Shown here: positions 4,881-32,734 of the stretch, piece after piece | Layout: the number at the start of each line of letters is the position of its first letter | How positions within the stretch are numbered: the first letter of the stretch is position 1 | IMG/VR virus record: IMGVR_UViG_3300015203_000018 | Coordinates: 1-35,863 of that record | Length of the DNA stretch: 35,863 nt | DNA from: a virus | Taxonomy: Duplodnaviria; Caudoviricetes | Reading direction: 5' to 3' (one strand) | Position numbers and translations under genes: made by a program | The notes under the pieces: generated by a model | What the model was told of the DNA's origin: nothing | Databases searched by the model: none | The model's input: the letters and a program-made list of their open reading frames with translations, nothing else

Positions 4881-6812
4881 TTAAGTTTTCGCTTCGCCGT
4901 ATCTAATTGCTGTGCCGCAAGAAACACCTAACGGCAACCCCGGTAGGCAGTCTGGTGTATTGCCCATAATCCTACTAGCGGTTTCTATAAACAGCTTCTC
5001 GCTACCCTCTGGTACCATACATACAAGTTCATCGTATGTAGTCATTACTACTCGGAATATCTTATTAAGCAGTACCTTATGGGTTTTCATTATCCAAGCC
5101 GATAGGGCTTGACAGATATTCTCCGTGACCTTACCCCCAAACAGCTTAACACACTTCCCACCGTCTAGGTAGGTAAGCTGCCCCTCTGGGTCTTTAGCTA
5201 AACCGGGATACTTAATGTAGAGTCCGCCCGGTAGTCTAATACCCGGCGACTTAAATAACGGTTCGTACCCTGCGTATACTATCGGCGTACCTGTAAATGG
5301 AAGCGCTAATTCTTCATCTACGTTACCGTCTAGCAGCGTGTTAACTGCTAGGTTTGCCTGCTTCCAGAATTTAACTACTCCCTTGTAGGTCTGCCTATAC
5401 AGCCTAACGATACTCTCAGCAAACTCTGGCGTTATATTCTTGATACCGCTAGACTTACAATACTCAATAAATCGTGCGGCCCCCATACCGTAGCCTAGTC
5501 CTAGTACGGCTGACTTAGCTATCTGTCTTTCTGCTGGGTGTGTGGCTTCGCTAATCTCTATACCGTAAATCTTAGTACCGAAATATGCATAGATATCGCC
5601 GCCTTCCGCCATTAGTTTTAGCGACTTTGCTTCTTCGCTATCTGGCCCAGCTAATTGCATTCCTAGCCATAGTACTAGCCTGCATTCAATCTGCTTATAG
5701 TCGGCTACTCCTAGTGTGTATGGGTCGGGGGCGTAGATCGCCTTCCGTAGCGTTCCCTTGCGTTTTAGGTTCATGGGGTTGCCCCCGCCGCCATCGTTGC
5801 CGCTGTAGCGCTGCGTGACCTTAGCGCCCGCGTAGTTGTATCCTACAGGCCATAGCCCCCGGCCTGCCGCGTCCCGGTACCGAACGGCCCGCGTTTCTTC
5901 AATGGTACTCTTTAACTCTAGTCGTGCAGCGACTAACGCCTGTACGTCTGGATCGTCATGCTCTAGTAAAGCCTTATGCGCTTCGTCTGTCTTAGCGAAT
6001 GCGTAGGATATTTTACCTGTCTTAGCGGATATCTTCGTAGGCGGTGTGACGCCTAGATTCTCTAAGGCTTCTGCATACTGATTATTAGACATAAGCATAT
6101 CGCGGGACGTAAGCCCTGCATTAGCTAATGCGTCTATTTTATTCTGTTTTACTTCCTCTATATAGCTATCCAGCATATCCCCATCAAGGTATAGCTGCGG
6201 GTCGGTGAACGCTCGTATTGTCCAGTCCAAAGATGATAGTTCTTCCTTTGGGAAGTACGGCATTAACTTCCTAAATATGGCGTTAGTTAGTACTACGTCA
6301 CCCGCCTCTAGCATTTGCTTCTGCTCGTTCCACCGTGGCTCACCAATGGTGTAGTCGGCTAGCCTATCTTCGATATGCTGCGGAAGGTCGCGGTAGTTAT
6401 ACGCCTTAGCTAACTCGTCCATCTTGGTCATGCCGCAAAGCTTCTCGGCCACGTACTTTAATCCGTGCCTAGCTAACTGCGGGCCTAGCAGCGCTCTACT
6501 TAAGCCTAGTGTATCTATATACAGCTTCGGGTATATACCGTAATGGTGCGCTAGGATAAAGCCATCGAATTGTAAGTTATGGCCTACTAGCGCGCATTCC
6601 TCTAGCTTCAGTCTACGTAGCACTGTCTCTGCGTGCCTGTGCGTAACCCACTTCGCAGGGCCACAGTTAATACTAACCCCGAAACCGTGAAGCTTAAACC
6701 GTTCGTCGCGTACATACTTCTCGGTAGTCATATCCTTATTGGATAGACTATAGCCGTCGCCGTAGAATGTTTCTATATCGCAGGTTATGACTCGCACGGA
6801 CAAAGCTCCCAT
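4881..6812 (-). CDS. polA: family A DNA polymerase with 3'-5' exonuclease domain
   Basis: Exo I CDIET, Exo II HNLQFD, motif A DYKQIECR, motif B RQIAKSAVLGLGYG, motif C TTYDELV. The true start may be GTG 6797, which follows GGAG. Confidence 0.95.
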   Translation of the reverse strand: MGALSVRVITCDIETFYGDGYSLSNKDMTTEKYVRDERFKLHGFGVSINCGPAKWVTHRHAETVLRRLKLEECALVGHNLQFDGFILAHHYGIYPKLYIDTLGLSRALLGPQLARHGLKYVAEKLCGMTKMDELAKAYNYRDLPQHIEDRLADYTIGEPRWNEQKQMLEAGDVVLTNAIFRKLMPYFPKEELSSLDWTIRAFTDPQLYLDGDMLDSYIEEVKQNKIDALANAGLTSRDMLMSNNQYAEALENLGVTPPTKISAKTGKISYAFAKTDEAHKALLEHDDPDVQALVAARLELKSTIEETRAVRYRDAAGRGLWPVGYNYAGAKVTQRYSGNDGGGGNPMNLKRKGTLRKAIYAPDPYTLGVADYKQIECRLVLWLGMQLAGPDSEEAKSLKLMAEGGDIYAYFGTKIYGIEISEATHPAERQIAKSAVLGLGYGMGAARFIEYCKSSGIKNITPEFAESIVRLYRQTYKGVVKFWKQANLAVNTLLDGNVDEELALPFTGTPIVYAGYEPLFKSPGIRLPGGLYIKYPGLAKDPEGQLTYLDGGKCVKLFGGKVTENICQALSAWIMKTHKVLLNKIFRVVMTTYDELVCMVPEGSEKLFIETASRIMGNTPDCLPGLPLGVSCGTAIRYGEAKT

Positions 6813-7330: not shown

Positions 7331-7610
7331 GCTCCCGCATAAACTCGTCGCTAACTAACATCGGAATCATTACGCAGTCCATACCTTTAGGCGCTTTCGC
7401 TTTACAGCTTTGGTACCGAGCTACGACTTGCTCCGGCGTTTGCTGCTTACCGAACGGGCCTACCGCTTCTGGCCTGTGCATGGATATATTTAGTCCGTAG
7501 CCTATAAAGGCGCTCATTATTAAGATAAACGCTACGACGATACTCGTTCGCAGTACATCCCATTTATCGCCATATTCATATAGTTTCATTAGGTTTCTCC
7601 GTGTAGACAA
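7317..7610 (-). CDS. hypothetical single-pass membrane protein
   Basis: Hydrophobic stretch SIVVAFILIMSAFIGYGL and a C-terminal Cys pair. Confidence 0.6.
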   Translation of the reverse strand: MSTRRNLMKLYEYGDKWDVLRTSIVVAFILIMSAFIGYGLNISMHRPEAVGPFGKQQTPEQVVARYQSCKAKAPKGMDCVMIPMLVSDEFMREHGDE

Positions 7611-7782
7611 TTTTACCTGCGGCTTCTATTTTCTTTTTAGCTATCTCTCTAAGCACATTGATATGTTTAGGTACCTCATAACCTATCTTTACTGCGCCAT
7701 GTTCTGAGATAGCCAGTACCCTTACTAGGATATTATCCCCAATCAATACGGCCTCTCCAACTTTGGACGTTAGTATAAGCAT
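7576..7782 (-). CDS. csrA: CsrA/RsmA-family translational regulator
   Basis: MLILTSKVGEAVLIGDNILVRVL...VKIGYEVPKHINVLREI aligns with CsrA (MLILTRRVGE..IGD.V.V.V....VRIG..APK.V.VHREE). The RNA-binding Arg44 equivalent is retained. Confidence 0.92.
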   Translation of the reverse strand: MLILTSKVGEAVLIGDNILVRVLAISEHGAVKIGYEVPKHINVLREIAKKKIEAAGKIVYTEKPNETI

Positions 7783-8016: not shown

Positions 8017-8469
8017 TCATAAGTTACTCCCGCTATGCCAACCCTTAAACTCCCGCTGTGCTATCTCTTTCGGGGATAGGTCGGGTAATAGCTGGGTAAG
8101 CGCAGCCCTAGACGCTGCCCTATGGATTATTTCTATGGCTATCTGTTCTGCCCACACGAAACTAGGATATCTAGCTAACTCAGCCTTCTCATATTCGACA
8201 AAAAACTGTACGCCTTGTGCGCCGCCTTCGTAACTAAGCTCTATGGCGATAGCGAACATGCGGCCTGATTCGCTTACTCTAACCGCAAGCTTATCTATTG
8301 TTATCTTGGATGGCCGGAAGTTCTTTTCCAGTATGCGTTCTAGTTCGCTTACCCACGGATGCGAGCTACCGTTGATAAGCTGGCTATCAGTTTTAGCTAC
8401 CGCTTTAGCTACCGCTTTAGCTACCGCTTTAGATTTCTCTATCTTCGCTATTGCTTTGCTTGGCTTCAC
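8017..8469 (-). CDS. hypothetical protein with N-terminal KAVA repeats
   Basis: 150 aa, GTG start after AGGAAGGAG. Confidence 0.7.
   Translation of the reverse strand: MKPSKAIAKIEKSKAVAKAVAKAVAKTDSQLINGSSHPWVSELERILEKNFRPSKITIDKLAVRVSESGRMFAIAIELSYEGGAQGVQFFVEYEKAELARYPSFVWAEQIAIEIIHRAASRAALTQLLPDLSPKEIAQREFKGWHSGSNL
8392..8432. repeat. 12-bp tandem repeat (TTTAGCTACCGC x3.4) encoding KAVA
   Basis: Read directly from the sequence. Confidence 0.9.
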
Positions 8470-8485: not shown

Positions 8486-8560
8486 TGGTGCGTCCGGTAG
8501 GTGTCGAACCTACGACCCTCGCCGTGTAAAGGCGATGCTCTACCACTGAGCTACGAACGC
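8486..8560 (-). tRNA. tRNA-Val(UAC)
   Basis: GCGTTCG acceptor, D-loop TAGCTCAGTGGTAGAGC, anticodon arm TCGCC-TTTACAC-GGCGA, GGTTCGA T-loop, encoded CCA. Confidence 0.95.
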
Positions 8561-8561
8561 T

Positions 8562-8646
8562 TGGTGGGCATGGTCGGAATCGAACCGACACGTATTACTA
8601 CGGCAGATTTTAAGTCTGCTGCGTCTACCTATTCCGCCACACGCCC
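8562..8646 (-). tRNA. tRNA-Leu(UAA)
   Basis: GGGCGTG acceptor, TGGCGGAATAGGTAGACGC, anticodon arm GCAGA-CTTAAAA-TCTGC, long variable arm, GGTTCGATTCC, CCA; 85 nt. Confidence 0.95.
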
Positions 8647-8862
8647 GTTAATCTCTTTCATCTTCTCTGCAAAGTCTAGTATTCTTTCTATGACGGCCCA
8701 TTGACCTGCGGTTAACGTGATAAGCCCCGTACCTTTTCTAGTACCTATCTGATTGGGTTTCTCGTCTATACCTAATTGTATCCGTACGTGGGTGCGTATA
8801 CCTTCTATACTTAAGTCGGTGCATATGCTTCGTTGCTGGAAGCTCTCGGCTGGTAAGCTCAA
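8629..8862 (-). CDS. hypothetical protein (stop codon inside tRNA-Leu)
   Basis: TTG start after AGGAG, overlapping the upstream stop. Confidence 0.55.
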   Translation of the reverse strand: MSLPAESFQQRSICTDLSIEGIRTHVRIQLGIDEKPNQIGTRKGTGLITLTAGQWAVIERILDFAEKMKEINGRVAE

Positions 8863-9404
8863 GCGTGTTCTCCTAATAACTGCGTCAGATTATCTACTAA
8901 CTCCGAATACAGATCGTACTCACTTTCTACCAGCTTCCACGCAGTTAGAATCTTTTTGCCTGCGTATATAGCTTTCGTACTCTCCGACTCCGTACTAAGT
9001 AACGCCCGCAACGAAGCGAACACGTAGTCTAGTACCGGATCGAACGTGGTATACTGTAGGTGCCGTAGGGTTCTACAAAGCTGTAATCTCTGCGCGTCCC
9101 TACGCGGATTATTAATTACGCAAGTTAAGTCTATAAAGTCTACATTAAGCTTATAGCACAGGGCTTTGATTACTAGGTACAATTCTAGATTGTACGCTTT
9201 AAGTACATCCTCTGCCTCTTTCTTACACTTGGGGTGCGGGCAACCTAACACTGCTAGCGTGTTAGCTAAACCTATTTTATTAATCAGCGCACCGTCTATC
9301 GGTTCCTCGGCGGTAATATCTTCCGTTGCTTTACGCGCAAGCGTATCCGCATCCACGCACCATTGCGGGCCTGCTTTGATTCTAGCTATGCTAGTATGTA
9401 TCAT
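8859..9404 (-). CDS. hypothetical protein
   Basis: 181 aa ORF with the phage-typical NTA codon use. Confidence 0.75.
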   Translation of the reverse strand: MIHTSIARIKAGPQWCVDADTLARKATEDITAEEPIDGALINKIGLANTLAVLGCPHPKCKKEAEDVLKAYNLELYLVIKALCYKLNVDFIDLTCVINNPRRDAQRLQLCRTLRHLQYTTFDPVLDYVFASLRALLSTESESTKAIYAGKKILTAWKLVESEYDLYSELVDNLTQLLGEHA

Positions 9405-9482
9405 TTAAATAGCTTCTTTGCGCGGCGTACGTGGCCTAGTGTAATTAGCGAATTGTTTATTCCGAATACTGGGTTCACCCAT
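9405..9482 (-). CDS. small hypothetical peptide MGEPSIRNKQFANYTRPRTPRKEAI
   Basis: Manual translation; AGGAG RBS; fills the gap between neighbouring genes exactly. Confidence 0.4.
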   Translation of the reverse strand: MGEPSIRNKQFANYTRPRTPRKEAI

Positions 9483-9792
9483 TGGAGTTCTCCTGTTCTG
9501 CGGCGATGGCGCGGGCAAGTTCGTGGCGGCAAACCGTTACATGCCTCGATCCATATGGGCCGGAGCTTTCGCCTAGTGCATTGATCCGAGCTTCCCATCT
9601 TTCCAGCAACTCTCGCAGCGACGCAACACTCACTGCCGTCCCCTTCCGCGCAATCTCGGCTTCGGGTTCGCGCTGTGCGATGGCTGCGGCGCATTCTTCA
9701 AGTAGTTCCGTGTCCCCTTCGTCATAGAAGTGTTCTGCCCTACGGCGAATTGAGATGCGTTCGCGCAACCTCGCAATCAGTTCTTCGATCAC
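9475..9792 (-). CDS. hypothetical protein (TpA-poor island)
   Basis: GTG start at 9792 with a GGAGG RBS. The ORF-track extension to 9963 overlaps the upstream gene. Confidence 0.65.
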   Translation of the reverse strand: MIEELIARLRERISIRRRAEHFYDEGDTELLEECAAAIAQREPEAEIARKGTAVSVASLRELLERWEARINALGESSGPYGSRHVTVCRHELARAIAAEQENSNG

Positions 9793-9793
9793 A

Positions 9794-10249
9794 TCAACCT
9801 CCCTTGCGTGCTGCGTCGATGGCCTCGCTTTCTGTTTTGTACCAGCCATCTTGGTATTTTGGCGGGTCGAAGTCTTTAGCGTTTTCCAATCGCACTTTGT
9901 TGGCATATTCGTAGTCGAATGAAGTCCACTCTCCGGTGATGAAATACCGATACCGCTCCGCATCCTCGCGCAACTCCGCTATTTCATCCAACAATGCGCG
10001 CTGTGATTTAGGCGGCTGACATAGTGTCAGGCCACCCTTTGTTACTGCCCACAGGCATCGTGTCCTGTGAGGATGGTTGGGTGGCAACTCCGCGAAGCCT
10101 GCTGCGGCGAGGGCTTTTCTCGCAAACGCGCGGCACTGCGCTCGCGTAGATTCATGGATAGCCGACCACGGCGCACCGTGCCCGTCCTCCCAGTACTGTT
10201 TTGCAATGGACTCGACAACCTCATCCGGTATTTTCGTCGGGTCGGTCAT
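9794..10249 (-). CDS. hypothetical protein (TpA-poor island)
   Basis: Contains LREDAERYRY...IDAA, a pattern common in small accessory genes of proteobacterial phages. Confidence 0.7.
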   Translation of the reverse strand: MTDPTKIPDEVVESIAKQYWEDGHGAPWSAIHESTRAQCRAFARKALAAAGFAELPPNHPHRTRCLWAVTKGGLTLCQPPKSQRALLDEIAELREDAERYRYFITGEWTSFDYEYANKVRLENAKDFDPPKYQDGWYKTESEAIDAARKGG

Positions 10250-10398
10250 GGCTTACTCCTGCTGCAAACTCTGTGGAAAGTGTCGCTAATTACTAAACGC
10301 CACCACCAGATATATTTCCAGTGACGGCGGATTCGGAAGCGGAAGTTCCGGCGGCAGGATGGATTGAACAGGTCGAACGCCTCACGACTTGCATTCAT
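10246..10398 (-). CDS. small basic hypothetical protein
   Basis: ATGA coupling at both ends; MNASREAF... Confidence 0.45.
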   Translation of the reverse strand: MNASREAFDLFNPSCRRNFRFRIRRHWKYIWWWRLVISDTFHRVCSRSKP

Positions 10399-10568
10399 GG
10401 CTTCATCCGCATCCATCGGTTTAGCCTTTTCCACCATTTGTTATGCGCCCGTTCCGCTTTAAGACTCTCTTGATAGTCGATTGCTGCGAGCGCCTCTAGG
10501 ATGCCAACAGGGATGCCGTGACGTATCCTGTCGCTGATTTCTTCGAGCCTTTCGTCTCTCGTAGTCAT
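10395..10568 (-). CDS. small hypothetical protein MTTRDERLEEISDRIRHG...
   Basis: 57 aa by manual translation, ATGA-coupled on both sides; below the ORF-track cutoff. Confidence 0.6.
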   Translation of the reverse strand: MTTRDERLEEISDRIRHGIPVGILEALAAIDYQESLKAERAHNKWWKRLNRWMRMKP

Positions 10569-11017
10569 GGCTTAATCCCCAGTTCGATCAGCGTTTCTTT
10601 GAGTTCGTCGGCGTGGTGCTCTGTGACATTCATCACGATGCCGTTTTCTTCGCATTTGGTAGGGTCTAGTAACCCAGCGTAATCGCGCCATCTTTGTTCC
10701 AATTGTCGTAGCGCATCTACGCTGACTGTCTTGTTGGCAAGTGCGGCATAGTCTTGGTACGCCACCCAATACCCAAACTCGAATCGAACCATTGATGCTT
10801 TCTGTTGGTGCATCGCAAGGTTGTAGCGGGGAACGGTGCCCACGCTGACTGCGCGCGGAGTGTCGGCCTGCGCGGATTCGATCTGTGCGAGTGCGGCGGC
10901 TAAGACTTGCTGCACATCCTCCACCGCAACGATCAGGGTGTTGTGTCCCGTAAGCGGCGATGGATCAAGCTCGCACAAGTCGCGGATTATTTTTGCAATC
11001 AGCGCATCATTGTTCAT
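10565..11017 (-). CDS. hypothetical protein (TpA-poor island)
   Basis: 150 aa in-operon ORF. Confidence 0.7.
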   Translation of the reverse strand: MNNDALIAKIIRDLCELDPSPLTGHNTLIVAVEDVQQVLAAALAQIESAQADTPRAVSVGTVPRYNLAMHQQKASMVRFEFGYWVAYQDYAALANKTVSVDALRQLEQRWRDYAGLLDPTKCEENGIVMNVTEHHADELKETLIELGIKP

Positions 11018-11092
11018 GGTGTCGGCTTCTTTAGTGCCTTCGTGTCCATCATCTTGCCCTCGGTGGTCATGTTTTTCCTTCCTTTGGGTAAT

Positions 11093-11116
11093 CGCACCGC
11101 GATTAACTGCGGTGCG
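11093..11116. other. GC hairpin at the island boundary
   Basis: CGCACCGC-N8-GCGGTGCG perfect 8-bp inverted repeat with no U-tract. Confidence 0.6.
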
Positions 11117-11127
11117 GGGTTAGTTAC

Positions 11128-11571
11128 TTAGCCGCCAATTACTACTGGCGGGGCTGGTGCATCGACCGCTGTGCCATCGGGGTTTGTTACTGTACCTACT
11201 GCTGCCGCTGCTGCGGTAACTGCGGGCGGGATCGCTGCTACTGCATCGGCTACTGCGGTCTGCTGTGCTGGCGGTGTATCAATAGCTGCTGGGGTATTAG
11301 CGGCTACTGCGCCTGCCAGTGCATCCGTGTTAGCTTGCAAATCGCTAGCGATCTTATCCAGCACGGTCGTATCTCCCGCCTTAGCTGCCGCGATACCTGC
11401 GGCAAGCTGGGTTTGGAAGCCGTTGATTAACGCAATAGCTGAGTTAATTACGGTCGTCTGTGCTGCTACTTCTGCTGTTAACTTATCTGACTGTGCGCTC
11501 ATCTTTCTAAGCTCCTTATAGATTAAAGTACAAAACCCAATTACTAGACCTAGTAATACACTATCTAACAT
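11128..11571 (-). CDS. Ala-rich helical protein with a possible N-terminal membrane anchor
   Basis: AGGAGG RBS. LTAEVAAQTTVINSAIALING...ALAGAVAANTPA resembles a recurrent phage hypothetical family. Confidence 0.75.
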   Translation of the reverse strand: MLDSVLLGLVIGFCTLIYKELRKMSAQSDKLTAEVAAQTTVINSAIALINGFQTQLAAGIAAAKAGDTTVLDKIASDLQANTDALAGAVAANTPAAIDTPPAQQTAVADAVAAIPPAVTAAAAAVGTVTNPDGTAVDAPAPPVVIGG

Positions 11572-11574
11572 CTT

Positions 11575-11614
11575 CTACCTCCTATGCGCATCCTGCGCCT
11601 ATCTACTTCCTTGT
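11575..11614 (-). promoter_or_regulatory. triple CsrA-type binding site leader
   Basis: ACAAGGAAGT (matches A/U-CANGGANG-U/A), GCGCAGGATGCGC (GGA in a hairpin loop) and SD AGGAGG. Confidence 0.6.
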
Positions 11615-11616
11615 GC

Positions 11617-12177
11617 TTATTTACTAATGCTTATTGCAATAGCGCTACCTACTTCTTCAATGACTACGTGCTGTTTCATACCTACGTCTTTAATTAAGCG
11701 GAACAGATTACCCCGCATCTTGTCGGGGGTATTATCTCCTGCCGCATAAAGAAAGGCCAGAATAGCTAATAGCTGATTCGCTGGTACTGGGATAGTGCTA
11801 CCCATGAAGGCGGCGAATGCTGTATCGGCTTCGGTATCCTCACCCTTAGTAAACGATACGACGCTAACGCCGTTGAATTCTTCTTCCTTACCTTTACCGA
11901 AGCCGTGCTTTACAGCTTCCTTATTAAGACATTCCATTCTGTATTTCTCACGCGCTTCGTCTGCCTGCCGCATTACATCTTCCAACTTACGCAGAGTCTC
12001 TATTGTAGGCTCCCCTTTAGCTAATTCGTCTACTACCTTATTAAGCCGTTCAATCGTGGAAAGCTTCGTATACAACGGCAAGTCTATTTCGTGGTAGCTT
12101 TCATCTGGCGTGTCCTGCCAGTCTTGAAGCTGTATCGCTTTCATATGTTTATGGCTTGCGTAGTATTTAATGCTCAT
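11617..12177 (-). CDS. hypothetical protein
   Basis: 186 aa with an AGGAAGGAG RBS. Confidence 0.75.
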   Translation of the reverse strand: MSIKYYASHKHMKAIQLQDWQDTPDESYHEIDLPLYTKLSTIERLNKVVDELAKGEPTIETLRKLEDVMRQADEAREKYRMECLNKEAVKHGFGKGKEEEFNGVSVVSFTKGEDTEADTAFAAFMGSTIPVPANQLLAILAFLYAAGDNTPDKMRGNLFRLIKDVGMKQHVVIEEVGSAIAISISK

Positions 12178-12202
12178 GGTGTACTCCTTCCTGTGGTAGT
12201 AA

Positions 12203-12278
12203 TGGTGGGCCAGTCTGGAATCGAACCAGAATCAATCCGTTATGAGCGGAACGCTTGTAACCAATAAGCTACAGGCCC
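12203..12278 (-). tRNA. tRNA(CAU), probably lysidine-type tRNA-Ile2 reading AUA
   Basis: GGGCCTG acceptor with C4-G69 and C5-G68 (TilS determinants), anticodon loop CTCATAA, GGTTCGATTCC, CCA. It lacks the initiator GGG/CCC anticodon stem. Confidence 0.9.
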
Positions 12279-12804: not shown

Positions 12805-13012
<208 letters not shown>

Positions 13013-17844: not shown

Positions 17845-19218
17845 CTAACACCGCGCCTGCACTTGGCGCACCTGTTCGGCAGACAGTCCTTTAAACACCA
17901 CCGATTGTAGCACTTCCGATTCTGGCACGCCATCCTTCAACAGTACCGCGCCACGGATACTAGCACGCGGGCTGACTACATGCTTAATGCCGCAGTCATG
18001 CACCGCTCGCCTGATGGTCTGCACCTTACTAACCCAATAATCATTACCGGCAAGCGTACGCTCGAACGCTTCATCATAGTCCCACGTAAGGGTAATAAAC
18101 CTGTCAAGCGTAGCAGCGTCTAACTTATTGCGGCCTACGTACTCATGCGTTGCGCCTGTCCCATACGTATTACCTGCGGCAATGATTATACAGTCGGGGT
18201 GCCTTGTCACCATCTCATCCCCGAATATACAGAACCCGTTCTCTAACGCGGCCTGCATGGCTACATATGCGAAGGGGTTGCCGCCGTCTATTTCATCCAC
18301 AAGAAATACCCCGCCGTACTTAAACACTTTATAGAATGCGGTTTCGACAAACTCGCCTAGTGCATTCTTAAATCCTAGCATCTTGTATTCCGTATCCACT
18401 GCACCGGTATAGTAGAACGGCAAGCCTAGCGCAGTCGCTACTGATTGCGCTGCCGTAGTCTTACCGCTACCCGTTGGCCCCGGTATCAGTACCGGAAACA
18501 CGAAACCCTTATAGTCGCGTTGCTGGCAGTAAGTAAGTAACCGTGGGAATGTCTTGTGCTGTACCCCTAAGTCTACCGCTGGTCTACTTTCATCCGCTAC
18601 CTGCACTACGATACGTTGCGGCCTATCTACTCCCCGCAATTCTTCCCGCACTATCTCGCGGATTGTGTCATGGTCTATATCGCCAACCCCTAACGCATCG
18701 CGTAGCACTTGCGCTAGCGCATCATTGCCAACGGGGTTATTAGCTTGCGGTGCTACATGCTTCGTTGCGGGTTTAGCTTGCGGTGCTACATGCTTCGTTG
18801 CGGGTTTAGCTTGCGGCTCTGCATCCGGCTCTGCATCCGGCATAGGCCTATCCCGACGCACTGTTGGCGTTGCCGCCGCAGGATGGTACGCATCCTGATA
18901 CTGTGAAGCTTGCGCTTGTCCTTCCGGCGTTCCCACGTTATTAAAAATGGTCATGGGTTTACCGGACGTTGCGCGGTTACGGTAAGACTCCGCACGTTGT
19001 TCCAGCGGCGGCAAGGCTGTTTCGATTGCCGCCCTATGCTGCGGATACGTTGCGACTAGCCATTGTGCGAAGTGCGCCTTGCGCGGAGTCTCAAAACGAG
19101 TCTGCCAGTTAACCCGCACTTGGCATACGTCTAATGCTAGCTTTTCGATATCGCCTGTAATGCAGTTAGCAATGCGGTGCGCGAGTGTATCAGTGAAGTT
19201 AAAATTAATGGTAGGCAT
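17845..19218 (-). CDS. MoxR/CobS-like AAA+ ATPase
   Basis: Walker A GPTGSGKT, Walker B FLVDEID, AAGNT, LDAATLDRF, SPRAS. Confidence 0.9.
   Translation of the reverse strand: MPTINFNFTDTLAHRIANCITGDIEKLALDVCQVRVNWQTRFETPRKAHFAQWLVATYPQHRAAIETALPPLEQRAESYRNRATSGKPMTIFNNVGTPEGQAQASQYQDAYHPAAATPTVRRDRPMPDAEPDAEPQAKPATKHVAPQAKPATKHVAPQANNPVGNDALAQVLRDALGVGDIDHDTIREIVREELRGVDRPQRIVVQVADESRPAVDLGVQHKTFPRLLTYCQQRDYKGFVFPVLIPGPTGSGKTTAAQSVATALGLPFYYTGAVDTEYKMLGFKNALGEFVETAFYKVFKYGGVFLVDEIDGGNPFAYVAMQAALENGFCIFGDEMVTRHPDCIIIAAGNTYGTGATHEYVGRNKLDAATLDRFITLTWDYDEAFERTLAGNDYWVSKVQTIRRAVHDCGIKHVVSPRASIRGAVLLKDGVPESEVLQSVVFKGLSAEQVRQVQARC
18740..18841. repeat. 33-bp x2.3 and 12-bp x2 in-frame tandem repeats in the ATPase linker
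   Basis: Encode PDAEPDAE and (PQAKPATKHVA)x2. Confidence 0.9.
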
Positions 19219-29329: not shown

Positions 29330-30271
29330 ATGGCACTACCAGCAGCAGCGCAAGCGGTTAAAGATAGGTTAGTAGCGGAAAGTATGGCGCCTAGTAATGA
29401 GCCAGTAGCGCCAGCTACGCCAGTAACTCCGGTACCTACTACGGGTACGGAAAGCCAAGTAACGATATCGCGGGACGAGTTTAATGAGCTACAGGCGGCG
29501 GCGGATCGCGTGAAGGCGGCAGAGGGGAGGGCGGAAGCCCTAAAGCTTGATCTAGAGGCTTTTCAGGGCCGCTTGACAGACTTGGAAAAGGCTTCTAAGG
29601 ATAGGCTTATCCCGGTAGCCCCTGAGCCTGTGACCCCGGCATTCCCCGTAGTAGCGTTCACCGAAAAGGAAGAAACGGAATACGGAGAGAGTAGGGAGTT
29701 TATCGAAAAGGTAGTAATGCAGTTACTTGCTAAGGTGCTTCCAGATACCCTACAAGCAATCGACACTAAGTTAGCGGCAGTAGAGGATAAGTTAACCGAA
29801 GTCGGCACCGTAGCTACTACCGCTAGAAAGGGACTTACCGAAGTTACCGAAGAAGCGTTTACTGAAAAGGTAAAAGAAAAAGTAGGTAACTTTGACGAAG
29901 TAGTAAATAACAAGTACTGGGATGCTTTTTGCGACGCAACAGAACCCGTATCAGGATTCACGTACGCGCAATGTATAGTACGAAATTTGCAAAATCGTAA
30001 CTTAGACGGAATGATAAACGTATTTAACGTATTCAAGACTAAGTACGAGATTGGTAAGAAACCAAACACGGAAGGGTATCAAGGGGCGAACCCCAGTGGA
30101 ACCACAGATACACCGCAGGAACCCGGTGGGAAGGAAATACTTAAATTCAGCGATAGAAAGGCTTTAAGTATCAAGTTCCAGCGGCATGAAATAAATAACG
30201 CTGACTATGAAGTAGAGAGAAAGAGGTTTGATTTAGCTGATAAAGAAGGTCGTTTGGACTACACCAAATAA
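29330..30271 (+). CDS. capsid scaffolding protein
   Basis: Acidic coiled coil directly upstream of the major capsid gene; ends in KEGRL. Confidence 0.75.
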   Translation: MALPAAAQAVKDRLVAESMAPSNEPVAPATPVTPVPTTGTESQVTISRDEFNELQAAADRVKAAEGRAEALKLDLEAFQGRLTDLEKASKDRLIPVAPEPVTPAFPVVAFTEKEETEYGESREFIEKVVMQLLAKVLPDTLQAIDTKLAAVEDKLTEVGTVATTARKGLTEVTEEAFTEKVKEKVGNFDEVVNNKYWDAFCDATEPVSGFTYAQCIVRNLQNRNLDGMINVFNVFKTKYEIGKKPNTEGYQGANPSGTTDTPQEPGGKEILKFSDRKALSIKFQRHEINNADYEVERKRFDLADKEGRLDYTK

Positions 30272-30293
30272 GTAATTAACTAGGAGCATAGAA

Positions 30294-31223
30294 ATGCCAA
30301 TTCCCGCCGCAGCCGGTTATCCGCAATATAGTAATAACCTTATAACTCCCCTCTTTAGGATGGAGTTGTTAGAGCGCTTTTATTCAACCACAGTGTATAG
30401 CGACGTATCGACTACAGAGTATACGGGTGAATTGAGTAAGGGCGGCGATCAGATTACCTTCATGCGTGAGCCGAAGGTAGCCGTGCGTGATTACGATAAG
30501 AACGGCAAGATCATACATGATACGATCGACGGTGATCCGATCACTATGACGATAGATAACGCTAAGACGTTCTCTATTAAGATGAATCTGATCGACGAAA
30601 AGCAAATCCAGAACTTCGAGAACTGGAAAGCAGCGTTCTTAAAGAGTGCAGGCTACGAGTTAGCGCGTGCCATTGACCCGCAGTTACTTACGGCAATGTG
30701 GACTAGCGTAGCATCGTACAATCAGGGCGCTACCGCAGGCTTAGTATCCGCAAATGTTAATTTAGGAACCGCAGGCGCTCCAGTAGCGATTACTAAAAAT
30801 AACGTCATAGACGTACTGCAACAGGTACAACAGGTACTTGACGAAGCGTTAGCTCCACGCGAAGGACGGTTTATTGTACTTCCGTCAGCAGGTATGACGG
30901 CACTTAAGAGTAGTGAACTGCGCTTTGCATACGGTACTGCGTTAAGTACTACTCCGTCATTGAACGGTAAGGTACCAGAAGTAGTTGCTGGGTTCATCAT
31001 CTTAGAGTCACAGAATGTACCTTCGGTCATTGATGGTGCCGTACGTGCGTACCATATCGTAGCCGGTGTAAAGATGGCAACCGCATTCGCGGCGCAGATC
31101 GAGAACAGTCGCGTAGTTACCGATAAAGACGACTGGGCAAACTACTATCAGGGCTTATCGGTGTACGGGTTTAAGGTGCTGTACCCAGATGCGTTAGTAC
31201 ACCTGTACGCTAACTTCGCCTAA
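30294..31223 (+). CDS. major capsid protein
   Basis: Y.GE....GD.I..., TID.AK.F, P.EGRFIVLP, G.V..VAGF.I.ES.N.P, GLSVYGFKVLYP; host-like codon usage. Confidence 0.9.
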   Translation: MPIPAAAGYPQYSNNLITPLFRMELLERFYSTTVYSDVSTTEYTGELSKGGDQITFMREPKVAVRDYDKNGKIIHDTIDGDPITMTIDNAKTFSIKMNLIDEKQIQNFENWKAAFLKSAGYELARAIDPQLLTAMWTSVASYNQGATAGLVSANVNLGTAGAPVAITKNNVIDVLQQVQQVLDEALAPREGRFIVLPSAGMTALKSSELRFAYGTALSTTPSLNGKVPEVVAGFIILESQNVPSVIDGAVRAYHIVAGVKMATAFAAQIENSRVVTDKDDWANYYQGLSVYGFKVLYPDALVHLYANFA

Positions 31224-31237
31224 TAGGAGAATATAAA

Positions 31238-31810
31238 ATGACGCTGCACGAATTGTATTTAGGCGGGCCGAGTAATACTAATAGCGGCCAAAAGCAGTTT
31301 CCCGCCGCCGCGTTCAATAATGCTATAGCACCGTTTCTTACGATGCCAGTAGCAGAGCATAAGGCTACTACGGTAGCTGCGTTAACCCGTACGTTAGACT
31401 TTGGTACGGCGCAAGGTAGGCCGAATGATCCAGCGCTACAGGAATACGTACGTACGCATACGATTGCGGCGGCAGATGTTATGAACTTAGCGGTTATCCC
31501 CGCTAATACGTTACTGCTCGGAATCTACTGCCAAGTAGAAACCGTATCCGGTACGGTAGGTACTATGACGTTTACCCTAGACGATGGTACTACGTTCGGC
31601 GCAGCAGTAGATATCAATGCCGCGTTTAGCAAGATGGCAGCGCCTAATGGAGCATGGGTATCGGCAGGAGCAGTTAGTTTAGCAACCGCTAACTTCTCGA
31701 ATGTACCTCGCGTACTTAAAATGACGTTAACTACGCTTACTACCACCTTTGGCGCACTACGGATTAGTGTATCTCCGATCCTGATTGCGTTGCAGCAAGG
31801 CCAGTATTAA
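31238..31810 (+). CDS. capsid accessory (cement/decoration) protein, paralog 1
   Basis: Beta-rich, follows the major capsid gene, near-colinear with the next gene. Confidence 0.65.
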   Translation: MTLHELYLGGPSNTNSGQKQFPAAAFNNAIAPFLTMPVAEHKATTVAALTRTLDFGTAQGRPNDPALQEYVRTHTIAAADVMNLAVIPANTLLLGIYCQVETVSGTVGTMTFTLDDGTTFGAAVDINAAFSKMAAPNGAWVSAGAVSLATANFSNVPRVLKMTLTTLTTTFGALRISVSPILIALQQGQY

Positions 31811-31822
31811 TAGGGGGGTGGT

Positions 31823-32734
31823 ATGACGCTGCATGAGTTATACATAGGTGGCCCCGCTAATACAAATAGCGGGAAGAAGATGTTTCCGGCGGCGGCGTTT
31901 AATAACGCCGTTGCGCCGTTTACTACAATGCCGCTGGCGCAGCATACAGAAACATTAGTAGCTGCGTTAACTCGTACACTAGATTTTGGTACGGCGCAAG
32001 GTAGGCCCAACGATCCCGCATTAGCAGAGTACGTTCGCACTCATACTATTGCGGCGGGGGATGTACTTAATTTAATAGTCATTCCCGCTAATACGCTATT
32101 CTTGGGCGTCTACTGCAATATAGAGAACCCGCAAGCGGGCGTAGGTCTATCGTTTACCTTAGACGATAGTACCACATTAGGCGGTATTAATCAGTTAGCC
32201 GCACCAGTACAGACAGCAGGCTCTACAGTAGCAGTAGGCGGTACGGTACCTGACGGTACTCGTCACTACGGCGTTACTGCTATAACCGCGTTAGGCGAGA
32301 CTACAGTATCTAATGATATAGCAATAGTATCTGCCGGTGGCGGACTGTCGATCAATACAGTTAACTGGAATGCAGTTGCAGGAGCTACGGGGTATAAGGT
32401 GTACTACGGCGCAGTAGCCGGAGTATACGGGCACTACTTTACGGTAGGCGCAGTAGTTACGATGAATGATACTGGCGCGGTAGGTACTGTCGCTAGTCCG
32501 CCAACTACCAATACCAGCGGCAATACCGTTTATACCAATACAGCTAAGACAGAGTTTTCGGTACCGAACGCTACGGCATGGGTAACAGCAGGGGCAGCTA
32601 CGTTAGTTAACGCTAGCTTTTCCAATGTACCAAGAATGCTACGCGCTACGATAAACACACTGACCACAAACTTCGGATCGCTGCGTATTAGCATATCCCC
32701 AATAGTGGTACAGTTACAAGCAGGTCAGTACTAA
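31823..32734 (+). CDS. capsid accessory protein, paralog 2, with an inserted FN3/Ig-like domain
   Basis: Same termini as 31238 plus a ~113 aa insert (GTRHYGVTA...GET...WNAVAGATGYKVYYG). Confidence 0.7.
   Translation: MTLHELYIGGPANTNSGKKMFPAAAFNNAVAPFTTMPLAQHTETLVAALTRTLDFGTAQGRPNDPALAEYVRTHTIAAGDVLNLIVIPANTLFLGVYCNIENPQAGVGLSFTLDDSTTLGGINQLAAPVQTAGSTVAVGGTVPDGTRHYGVTAITALGETTVSNDIAIVSAGGGLSINTVNWNAVAGATGYKVYYGAVAGVYGHYFTVGAVVTMNDTGAVGTVASPPTTNTSGNTVYTNTAKTEFSVPNATAWVTAGAATLVNASFSNVPRMLRATINTLTTNFGSLRISISPIVVQLQAGQY

What the first reader, a model, noticed from the sequence alone, without database searches (positions are those of the whole stretch)
8486..12278. All three tRNAs appear to decode NTA codons (GTA, TTA, ATA)
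Seen: anticodons UAC (Val), UAA (Leu) and CAU, the last with C4-G69/C5-G68 in the acceptor stem. Established: those pairs are TilS determinants of tRNA-Ile2, which reads AUA after lysidine modification. Inference: the tRNA set compensates for the TpA drive and couples DNA composition to the translation supply. It predicts a tRNA-Leu(UAG) elsewhere in the genome or reliance on the host copy for CTA.
Basis: partly seen in the sequence, partly recalled or inferred. Interest (0 to 1): 0.75.

Follow-up and report, generated by a model that had tools for sequence, protein, structure and literature searches.

The report
Phage tRNAs matched to TpA-rich codons
This soil phage has DNA unusually rich in the letter pair TA and carries three tRNA genes that likely top up the host's supply for its favourite GTA, TTA and ATA codons; among its relatives, codon choice in the capsid gene follows which tRNAs each phage carries, a clean natural test of why phages carry tRNAs.

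Summary
Observation confirmed: three intact tRNA genes, Val(UAC), Leu(UAA) and a CAU tRNA with Ile2 marks (G3-C70, C4-G69, C5-G68). They lie in a 36-kb piece of an uncultured ~63-kb podophage from soil. TpA is strongly over-represented (rho 1.44), also across codon junctions (odds ratio 7.1) and outside genes, so the bias is in the DNA and not made by the tRNAs. Eight complete or near-complete relatives form a natural experiment. Genome ATA share is 0.40-0.46 with Ile2 and 0.09-0.14 without. Capsid-gene CTA use is 35/79 with Leu(UAG) and 1/149 without; GTA is 17/26 here (the only Val(UAC)) and 23/185 elsewhere. This phage's capsid gene has CTA 0/25 and TTA 11/25, so a hidden Leu(UAG) is unlikely. 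Corrections: the clade rule is A-ending codons (27 of 27 tRNAs; 18 NTA), the capsid gene avoids ATA even with Ile2, the host is unknown, and the cause of the TpA excess is open. This is codon compensation, a known idea, in a variant driven by a dinucleotide bias rather than low GC. Interest 0.5.

The parts
8486..8560 (-). tRNA-Val(UAC), CCA encoded; the only Val(UAC) among the 9 records compared; 1 nt downstream of the Leu gene
8562..8646 (-). tRNA-Leu(UAA), class II with long variable arm, CCA encoded; 59-76% identical to the seven other clade Leu(UAA) genes
12203..12278 (-). CAU tRNA, predicted Ile2 (G3-C70, C4-G69, C5-G68, loop CUCAUAA, A73); atypical U6.U67, U27.U43 and D-loop; identical 76/76 in sister phage G001
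12269..12586 (-). 105-aa ORF of unknown function whose last codons and TAG stop lie inside the 5' end of the Ile2 gene; homologs called in G000, G001, G003-G006, not in G002 or G008
9401..11100 (-). Low-TpA island between the tRNAs (rho 0.65, host-like codons: GTA 4/26, ATA 3/27) that nonetheless lacks non-TA palindromes (7 seen, 26.8 expected); no phage match; likely a recent gain
30294..31223 (+). Major capsid gene: GTA 17/26, TTA 11/25, CTA 0/25, ATA 4/20; read-out of which tRNAs are supplied
29330..32734 (+). Head gene cluster (putative scaffold, capsid, two following genes): TTA:CTA 36:12 against 56:90 in eight early/replication genes
4881..6812 (-). Family A DNA polymerase; downstream boundary of the tRNA-bearing interval and marker for the tree
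17845..19218 (-). AAA ATPase (CobS/MoxR-like); upstream boundary of the tRNA-bearing interval in the clade

Best explanation
The phage's DNA is strongly TpA-rich at codon junctions and outside genes, its Val, Leu and Ile codons are shifted to GTA, TTA/CTA and ATA, and it carries three tRNAs that likely supplement a host pool predicted to be poor in readers of these codons, the CAU tRNA doing so after predicted lysidine modification by host TilS. Shown: the DNA-level TpA bias, the codon shift, the tRNA genes and their Ile2 marks, and the codon-by-codon match between tRNA set and codon use across relatives, sharpest in the capsid gene. Inferred: a DNA-level force of unknown origin pushes silent sites towards TpA; translation on a GC-rich host holds NTA codons down, most strongly in abundant late proteins; each captured tRNA lifts that limit for its own codon, which then spreads and makes the tRNA hard to lose. 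CTA has no phage tRNA here, so it is tolerated in moderately expressed genes and purged from the capsid gene. ATA stays rare in capsid genes even with Ile2, likely because supply depends on host TilS.
For: TpA rho 1.44; T3|A1 junction odds ratio 7.06 in codon boxes no phage tRNA reads; non-coding rho 1.32 on 2,741 nt. 0 of 98 loci of distant polymerase relatives exceed rho 1.2. Nine records (window plus G001-G006, G008, G012): genome ATA share 0.40-0.46 in 5 with Ile2, 0.09-0.14 in 4 without; CTA 0.32-0.38 in 3 with Leu(UAG), 0.04-0.28 in 6 without; TTA 0.09-0.29 in 6 with Leu(UAA), 0.03-0.05 in 3 without. Capsid gene: CTA 35/79 with against 1/149 without, and 1/76 when only TpA-rich genomes without it are counted; GTA 17/26 against 23/185 (22/124 in TpA-rich genomes); TTA 23/155 against 0/73. 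In the window CTA 0/25 in the capsid gene against 0.28 genome-wide, p=0.0005, although TpA pressure acts in that gene (junction OR 3.1). G004 is TpA-rich (OR 2.2), lacks Ile2 and has ATA 0.10. Carriers and non-carriers interleave on the polymerase tree. Ile2: in the Silva et al. set 22 of 22 CAU tRNAs with the same first 12 nt and 13 of 13 with the same 13-nt anticodon arm core are class Ile; G3/C70 is reported there as excluding Met and fMet.
Against: Host unknown, so scarcity of the host tRNAs is assumed; only stand-ins were measured (Ralstonia 50 kb: GTA 0.05, ATA 0.04, TTA 0.01, CTA 0.04; E. coli 20 kb: 0.13, 0.07, 0.12, 0.03). Capsid genes avoid ATA even with Ile2 (4/102). G006 keeps Leu(UAA) with TTA share 0.09 and capsid TTA 0/26; G003 and G005 have capsid TTA only 2/26 and 1/27. 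Pro(UGG) shows no effect (capsid CCA 0/13 in its one carrier) and Thr(UGU) little among TpA-rich genomes (17/105 against 7/46). G001 and G003 reach GTA 0.48-0.50 without Val(UAC). 9 of 27 clade tRNAs are not NTA, and fragment L240 holds six tRNAs at rho 0.92. The sample is small and related: the three Leu(UAG) carriers are two lineages, Val(UAC) is one genome, the 'TpA-rich without Ile2' case is one genome. TpA also co-varies with GC (Spearman -0.90). No expression, modification or charging data.
Confidence: 0.7

Rival explanations
1. The tRNAs are kept mainly to replace host tRNAs cut by anticodon nucleases or lost during host shut-off; codon use adapts afterwards to whatever is supplied.
For: Eight clade Leu(UAA) genes are only 48-80% identical, which fits repeated replacement; two have G37 in place of A37. 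The Ile2 gene has atypical positions yet is 76/76 identical in a sister phage at 72% overall nucleotide identity. G006 keeps Leu(UAA) with little TTA. A Schlafen nuclease leaves cleavage signatures on Val(UAC) and Ile(CAU) among others (PMC13056530, passages); hypothesis set out in PMC10264068 (passages).
Against: Nucleases give no reason for an NTA excess (18 of 27, p=4e-5 against 4/14 if taken as independent) or for tRNA-less relatives being those with least TpA (Spearman 0.81). The main known targets Lys(UUU), Tyr and fMet are nearly absent (one Lys in 27). In the mycobacteriophages used for that hypothesis codon use did not differ; here it differs sharply.
Confidence: 0.18
2. Reverse order: tRNAs were captured first, made NTA codons optimal, and the codon shift created the TpA excess.
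For: Capsid-gene CTA and GTA rise to or above the genome share only where the tRNA is present (ratios 0.9-1.5 and 1.1), so tRNAs do shape codon choice.
Against: TpA is enriched where no tRNA can act: junction OR 7.06, T favoured before A in two-codon NNY families (0.72 against 0.34-0.41), non-coding rho 1.32. CTA is 0.28-0.30 of Leu codons here with no Leu(UAG).
Confidence: 0.06
3. Base rate or hitch-hiking: Leu(UAA), Val(UAC) and CAU tRNAs are common phage cargo and the NTA match is coincidence.
For: Leu(UAA), Thr(UGU), Arg(UCU) and Val(UAC) are among the six commonest cyanomyovirus tRNAs and T-headed anticodons dominate (PMC3152331, passages). Three of three NTA has p about 0.3 from the clade pool.
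Against: Does not explain capsid CTA 35/79 against 1/149, GTA 17/26 against 23/185, or the non-overlapping ATA shares.
Confidence: 0.06

Closest known systems
Codon compensation by phage tRNAs, as in cyanomyovirus Syn9 (Leu-UAA, Thr-UGU, Arg-UCU, Val-UAC; PMC3152331, PMC11726456, passages read)
   Same: U34 tRNAs for A-ending codons carried by a phage whose codons depart from a GC-richer host; Leu(UAA) shortage is shown there to block phage translation.
   Different: There the driver is low GC overall in ~175-kb myoviruses. Here a ~63-kb podophage at 49% GC (a fragment at 57% GC, G014, shows the same bias) departs through one dinucleotide; AAA, CAA and GGA are not favoured; the capsid gene follows the phage's tRNAs rather than the host.
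Bacterial tRNA-Ile2(CAU)/TilS system (PMC1635315 main text parts 1-3 of 4 and supplementary file 3; PMC2500205 passages)
   Same: G3-C70, C4-G69, C5-G68, CUCAUAA loop; 5' end and anticodon arm match alpha- and betaproteobacterial Ile2 genes.
   Different: U6.U67 and U27.U43 mismatches and an atypical D loop; no tilS among the genes annotated, so the host enzyme is needed; modification untested.
Anti-defence phage tRNAs (T5 tRNA-Lys against PARIS, tRNA-Tyr against retron Eco7; PMC13015707 Background read, PMC10264068 passages)
   Same: Small, variable, repeatedly replaced tRNA set in an early-gene region.
   Different: Different isotypes, and a strong codon-use match that those cases do not need.
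Pseudomonas phage KPP25 (Kochitakasuvirus) and Rhizobium phage RHph_TM3_14A
   Same: Best cultured matches for the polymerase (about 32% identity; capsid 29% to TM3_14A), similar size and gene kinds.
   Different: TpA-poor (rho 0.62 and 0.69) and no tRNA in the 50 kb of each that I fetched; too distant to give a host.

Membership tests
tRNA-Ile2 (TilS substrate) | CAU anticodon with A37/A38 and discriminator A73 | tested here: met
tRNA-Ile2 (TilS substrate) | C4-G69 and C5-G68 (E. coli TilS positive determinants; not universal) | tested here: met
   determinants
tRNA-Ile2 (TilS substrate) | G3/A3 with C70/U70 instead of the C3-G70 of Met tRNAs; motifs confined to the Ile class | tested here: met
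   G3-C70; 22 of 22 and 13 of 13 motif hits in the Ile sheet
tRNA-Ile2 (TilS substrate) | Isotype-model score (tRNAscan-SE 2.0 or TFAM) | not testable with these tools
   not available; the paper's alignment and profile files could not be read
tRNA-Ile2 (TilS substrate) | Lysidine at C34, charging with Ile, AUA decoding | not testable with these tools
   needs biochemistry
elongator tRNA-Met | C3-G70, U4-A69, A5-U68, C27-G43 | tested here: not met
   G3-C70, C4-G69, C5-G68, U27.U43 (criteria)
initiator tRNA-fMet | C1:A72 mismatch, A11-U24, R29G30G31 in the anticodon stem | tested here: not met
   G1-C72, C11-G24, C29C30G31 (criteria)
codon-compensating phage tRNA set | Cognate codons over-used by the phage | tested here: met
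   RSCU GTA 2.38, TTA 1.64, ATA 1.41
codon-compensating phage tRNA set | Those codons and tRNAs rare in the host | tested here: inconclusive
   host unknown; rare in two stand-ins and in capsid genes of tRNA-less relatives
codon-compensating phage tRNA set | tRNA presence co-varies with codon use among relatives | tested here: met
   met for ATA, CTA, GTA, TTA; weak for ACA; not for CCA
anti-nuclease phage tRNA | Resistance to a host anticodon nuclease | not testable with these tools
   host and nuclease unknown; window anticodon loops are canonical
phage with protective DNA base modification | Modification genes, and no purge of protected sites | tested here: not met
   none recognised in 62 window ORFs (PHROGs) or 84 representatives (Pfam), many of which had no family; TA-containing sites are purged too

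The most novel reading that the evidence does not exclude
This clade escapes restriction enzymes partly by shifting its whole genome into TpA-rich sequence that host enzymes seldom target, and pays for it by capturing tRNAs one at a time, each unlocking one NTA codon: an anti-restriction, base-composition and tRNA ratchet seen in action. TpA excess tracks depletion of non-TA 6-bp palindromes across 9 records (Spearman -0.95), TA-containing palindromes are mostly spared at matched AT content, and the capsid gene flips codon with each tRNA. Against: the island has lost palindromes without gaining TpA, GC is a confounder, and a polymerase mutation bias is as likely.
Probability: 0.25. Interest if true: 0.75.

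Novelty: new variant of a known kind. Interest (0 to 1): 0.5.

Why it matters
Why phages carry tRNAs is still argued (codon compensation, host shut-off, nuclease escape). Most tests compare unrelated phages. Here one clade with 60-90% identical capsid proteins carries zero to six tRNAs, and the capsid gene's choice of CTA, TTA or GTA switches with the set, even among genomes under similar TpA pressure. That is unusually direct comparative support for a translational role, and it yields sharp predictions (for example, fragment G014 should carry Leu(UAG)). TpA over-representation of this size is also rare among the relatives sampled and has no identified cause.

Tried and rejected
No RNA holder listed. 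Laying G003's Leu(UAG)+Thr stretch on run X1 at 80% to look for a Leu(UAG) in the missing part was inconclusive: 8 of 33 pieces shown, none a long contig. Sigma-70-like sites are at chance level (17 against 16.3). A first DNA pattern was unspecific (5 of 23 loci had the polymerase). A protective TpA modification was rejected. The conserved 181-aa protein beside the tRNAs has no usable Atlas hit. Dropped before the count of 27 tRNAs: the odd 'Ala(UGC)' call in G005 (folds no better than shuffles), duplicates L231 and L242, the fMet-like gene of distant G009, a low-complexity call in L243. Left out of the 9-record comparison: partial G007, G011, G013, G014 and distant G009. Earlier-findings look-ups returned nothing.
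Full report
Observation. The window holds three tRNA genes, all on the minus strand with encoded CCA: Val(UAC) 8486-8560, Leu(UAA) 8562-8646 and a CAU gene 12203-12278. The CAU acceptor stem is G1-C72, G2-C71, G3-C70, C4-G69, C5-G68, U6.U67, G7-C66, A73. C4-G69/C5-G68 are the E. coli TilS determinants, while Met has U4-A69/A5-U68 (PMC2500205, passages); they are not universal (PMC1635315). That survey of 234 genomes reports G3 or C70 as excluding Met and fMet. In its supplementary file 3, 22 of 22 genes with the same first 12 nt and 13 of 13 with the same anticodon-arm core are class Ile, mostly alpha- and betaproteobacterial. fMet marks are absent (criteria). Ile2 is very likely; modification is untested. 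The paper's alignment and profile files could not be read.

Setting. The window is part of an uncultured tailed phage: PolA, ligase, helicase, terminase, portal, capsid. Its nearest cultured matches are about 32% identical in the polymerase. The one run holding it is a soil metagenome. Complete relatives are 59-65 kb. The host could not be identified; an Rz1-like gene in relatives and a CsrA-like gene, and CTG/ATC-rich capsid genes in tRNA-less relatives, point to a GC-rich Gram-negative bacterium (inference).

The TpA bias is in the DNA. Rho(TpA) is 1.44 at 49% GC; 0 of 98 loci of distant polymerase relatives exceed 1.2 (median 0.9). In four-fold boxes that no phage tRNA reads, a third-position T occurs 423/829 times before A and 253/1967 otherwise (OR 7.06); non-coding DNA has rho 1.32. 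GTA, CTA, TTA and ATA have RSCU 2.38, 1.78, 1.64 and 1.41, while AAA, CAA and GGA are below 1. So the phage favours NTA and not A-ending codons in general. In two stand-in bacteria these codons are rare, but the comparison with the real host was not possible.

Natural experiment. I searched eight relatives whole. G001: Leu(UAA), CAU. G003 and G005: Leu(UAA), Leu(UAG), CAU, Thr(UGU). G004: Leu(UAA), Thr. G006 contig 37: Leu(UAA), Leu(UAG), CAU, Thr, Pro(UGG). G002, G008, G012: none. Fragments add L240 (Leu-UAA, Gly-UCC, Thr, Arg-UCU, CAU, Lys-UUU) and L214 (Leu-UAA). All clade CAU genes have G3-C70 and C4-G69. All 27 tRNAs counted read A-ending codons and 18 read NTA. Genome ATA share is 0.40-0.46 in the 5 records with Ile2 and 0.09-0.14 in the 4 without; G004 is TpA-rich (OR 2.2) yet has 0.10. 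In the capsid gene CTA is 35/79 with Leu(UAG) and 1/149 without (1/76 among TpA-rich genomes), GTA 17/26 in the window and 23/185 elsewhere, TTA 23/155 with Leu(UAA) and 0/73 without. Carriers and non-carriers interleave on the tree, and CAU genes of different lineages are only 58-73% identical, Leu(UAA) genes 48-80%, which suggests repeated capture. The sample is small: two lineages for Leu(UAG), one genome for Val(UAC).

The CTA question. In the window the capsid gene has CTA 0/25 against 0.28 genome-wide (p=0.0005), though junction TpA acts there (OR 3.1), and the head cluster has TTA:CTA 36:12 against 56:90 in eight early genes (p=1e-5). In complete relatives every tRNA lies between the AAA ATPase and the polymerase, an interval the window covers in full. 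A Leu(UAG) in the missing part is therefore unlikely; a direct look was inconclusive.

Results against. Capsid genes avoid ATA even with Ile2 (4/102). G006 keeps Leu(UAA) with TTA 0.09. Pro(UGG) shows no effect and Thr(UGU) little. G001 and G003 reach GTA 0.48-0.50 without Val(UAC). L240 has six tRNAs at rho 0.92. These leave room for an anti-nuclease or shut-off role (PMC10264068 passages; PMC13056530 passages; PMC13015707 abstract and Background).

Cause of the TpA excess. Open. Six-base palindromes without TA are at 0.22 of expectation (those with TA 0.87), and GGWCC- and CCWGG-type words are nearly absent, as expected from restriction-site avoidance (enzyme link recalled). Across 9 records this depletion tracks TpA (Spearman -0.95), but so does GC (-0.90); fragment G014 (57% GC, OR 4.7) separates TpA from GC. 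A protective modification is unlikely: no such gene was recognised, and TA-containing sites are purged too (CCTAGG 0/11 and TGTACA 0/11 here; GGTACC 0/20 and 0/23 in G003 and G005). The island at 9401-11100 lacks palindromes but is TpA-poor, so site loss does not by itself bring TpA. Mutation bias and selection for restriction escape remain about equally likely.

Known and new. Phage tRNAs for A-ending codons are well known (PMC3152331 passages), and Leu(UAA) shortage blocks Syn9 (PMC11726456 passages). Capsid genes are usually described as adapted to the host (PMC9963407 passages). Ten literature searches (listings only, open-access library) showed no TpA-rich phage clade and no within-clade switch of capsid codons with tRNA content; subscription papers and unread supplements may hold such cases. 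Verdict: real; codon compensation about 70% likely; a new variant of a known kind; interest 0.5.

Noticed in passing
window 1-35863: Strong avoidance of restriction-type sites: 23 of 41 non-TA 6-bp palindromes absent outside the island; GGACC 3 against 104 and CCAGG 8 against 134 expected in window plus G001. The set purged differs between relatives.
   Followed up: partly
window 9401-11100: Low-TpA, higher-GC island of orphan ORFs between the tRNA genes, likely a recent gain; useful as a clock for the TpA shift.
   Followed up: partly
window 7576-7782 (-): CsrA-family translational regulator (Pfam PF02599, 53 bits) 0.7 kb from the tRNAs: a second translation-related gene.
   Followed up: partly
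window 12269-12278 and 8629-8646: Upstream ORFs end inside the 5' ends of the Ile2 and Leu genes; tRNA processing would clip those mRNAs.
   Followed up: no
L114:5970-8831 (G001) and L273:10643-13549 (G012): DNA polymerase match is split by about 0.9 kb inserts at different places; in G001 the insert holds a 224-aa ORF with a weak HTH. Possible introns or homing elements.
   Followed up: no
L128:4464-4559 (G005): Odd 96-nt tRNA-like element called Ala(UGC) by ARAGORN (Rfam 35 bits), with good acceptor and T arms but no clear anticodon arm; perhaps a decaying class II tRNA.
   Followed up: partly
L281 (G014): 15.8-kb fragment at 57% GC with extreme TpA (ATA 0.66, CTA 0.46, GTA 0.55, TTA 0.03); predicts Leu(UAG) and Ile2 in its missing part.
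   Followed up: partly
L123:13483-13567 and L214:13314-13398: Leu(UAA) genes with G37 in the anticodon loop instead of A37.
   Followed up: no
window 8397-8432, 12951-12983, 18754-18816: Short in-frame tandem repeats (AKAV x3, DT repeats, a duplicated 13-aa stretch in the ATPase); the last two break the contigs in run X1.
   Followed up: no
L119:12198-12875: ThyX thymidylate synthase in G002, G003 and G005 upstream of the polymerase; not found in the window.
   Followed up: no
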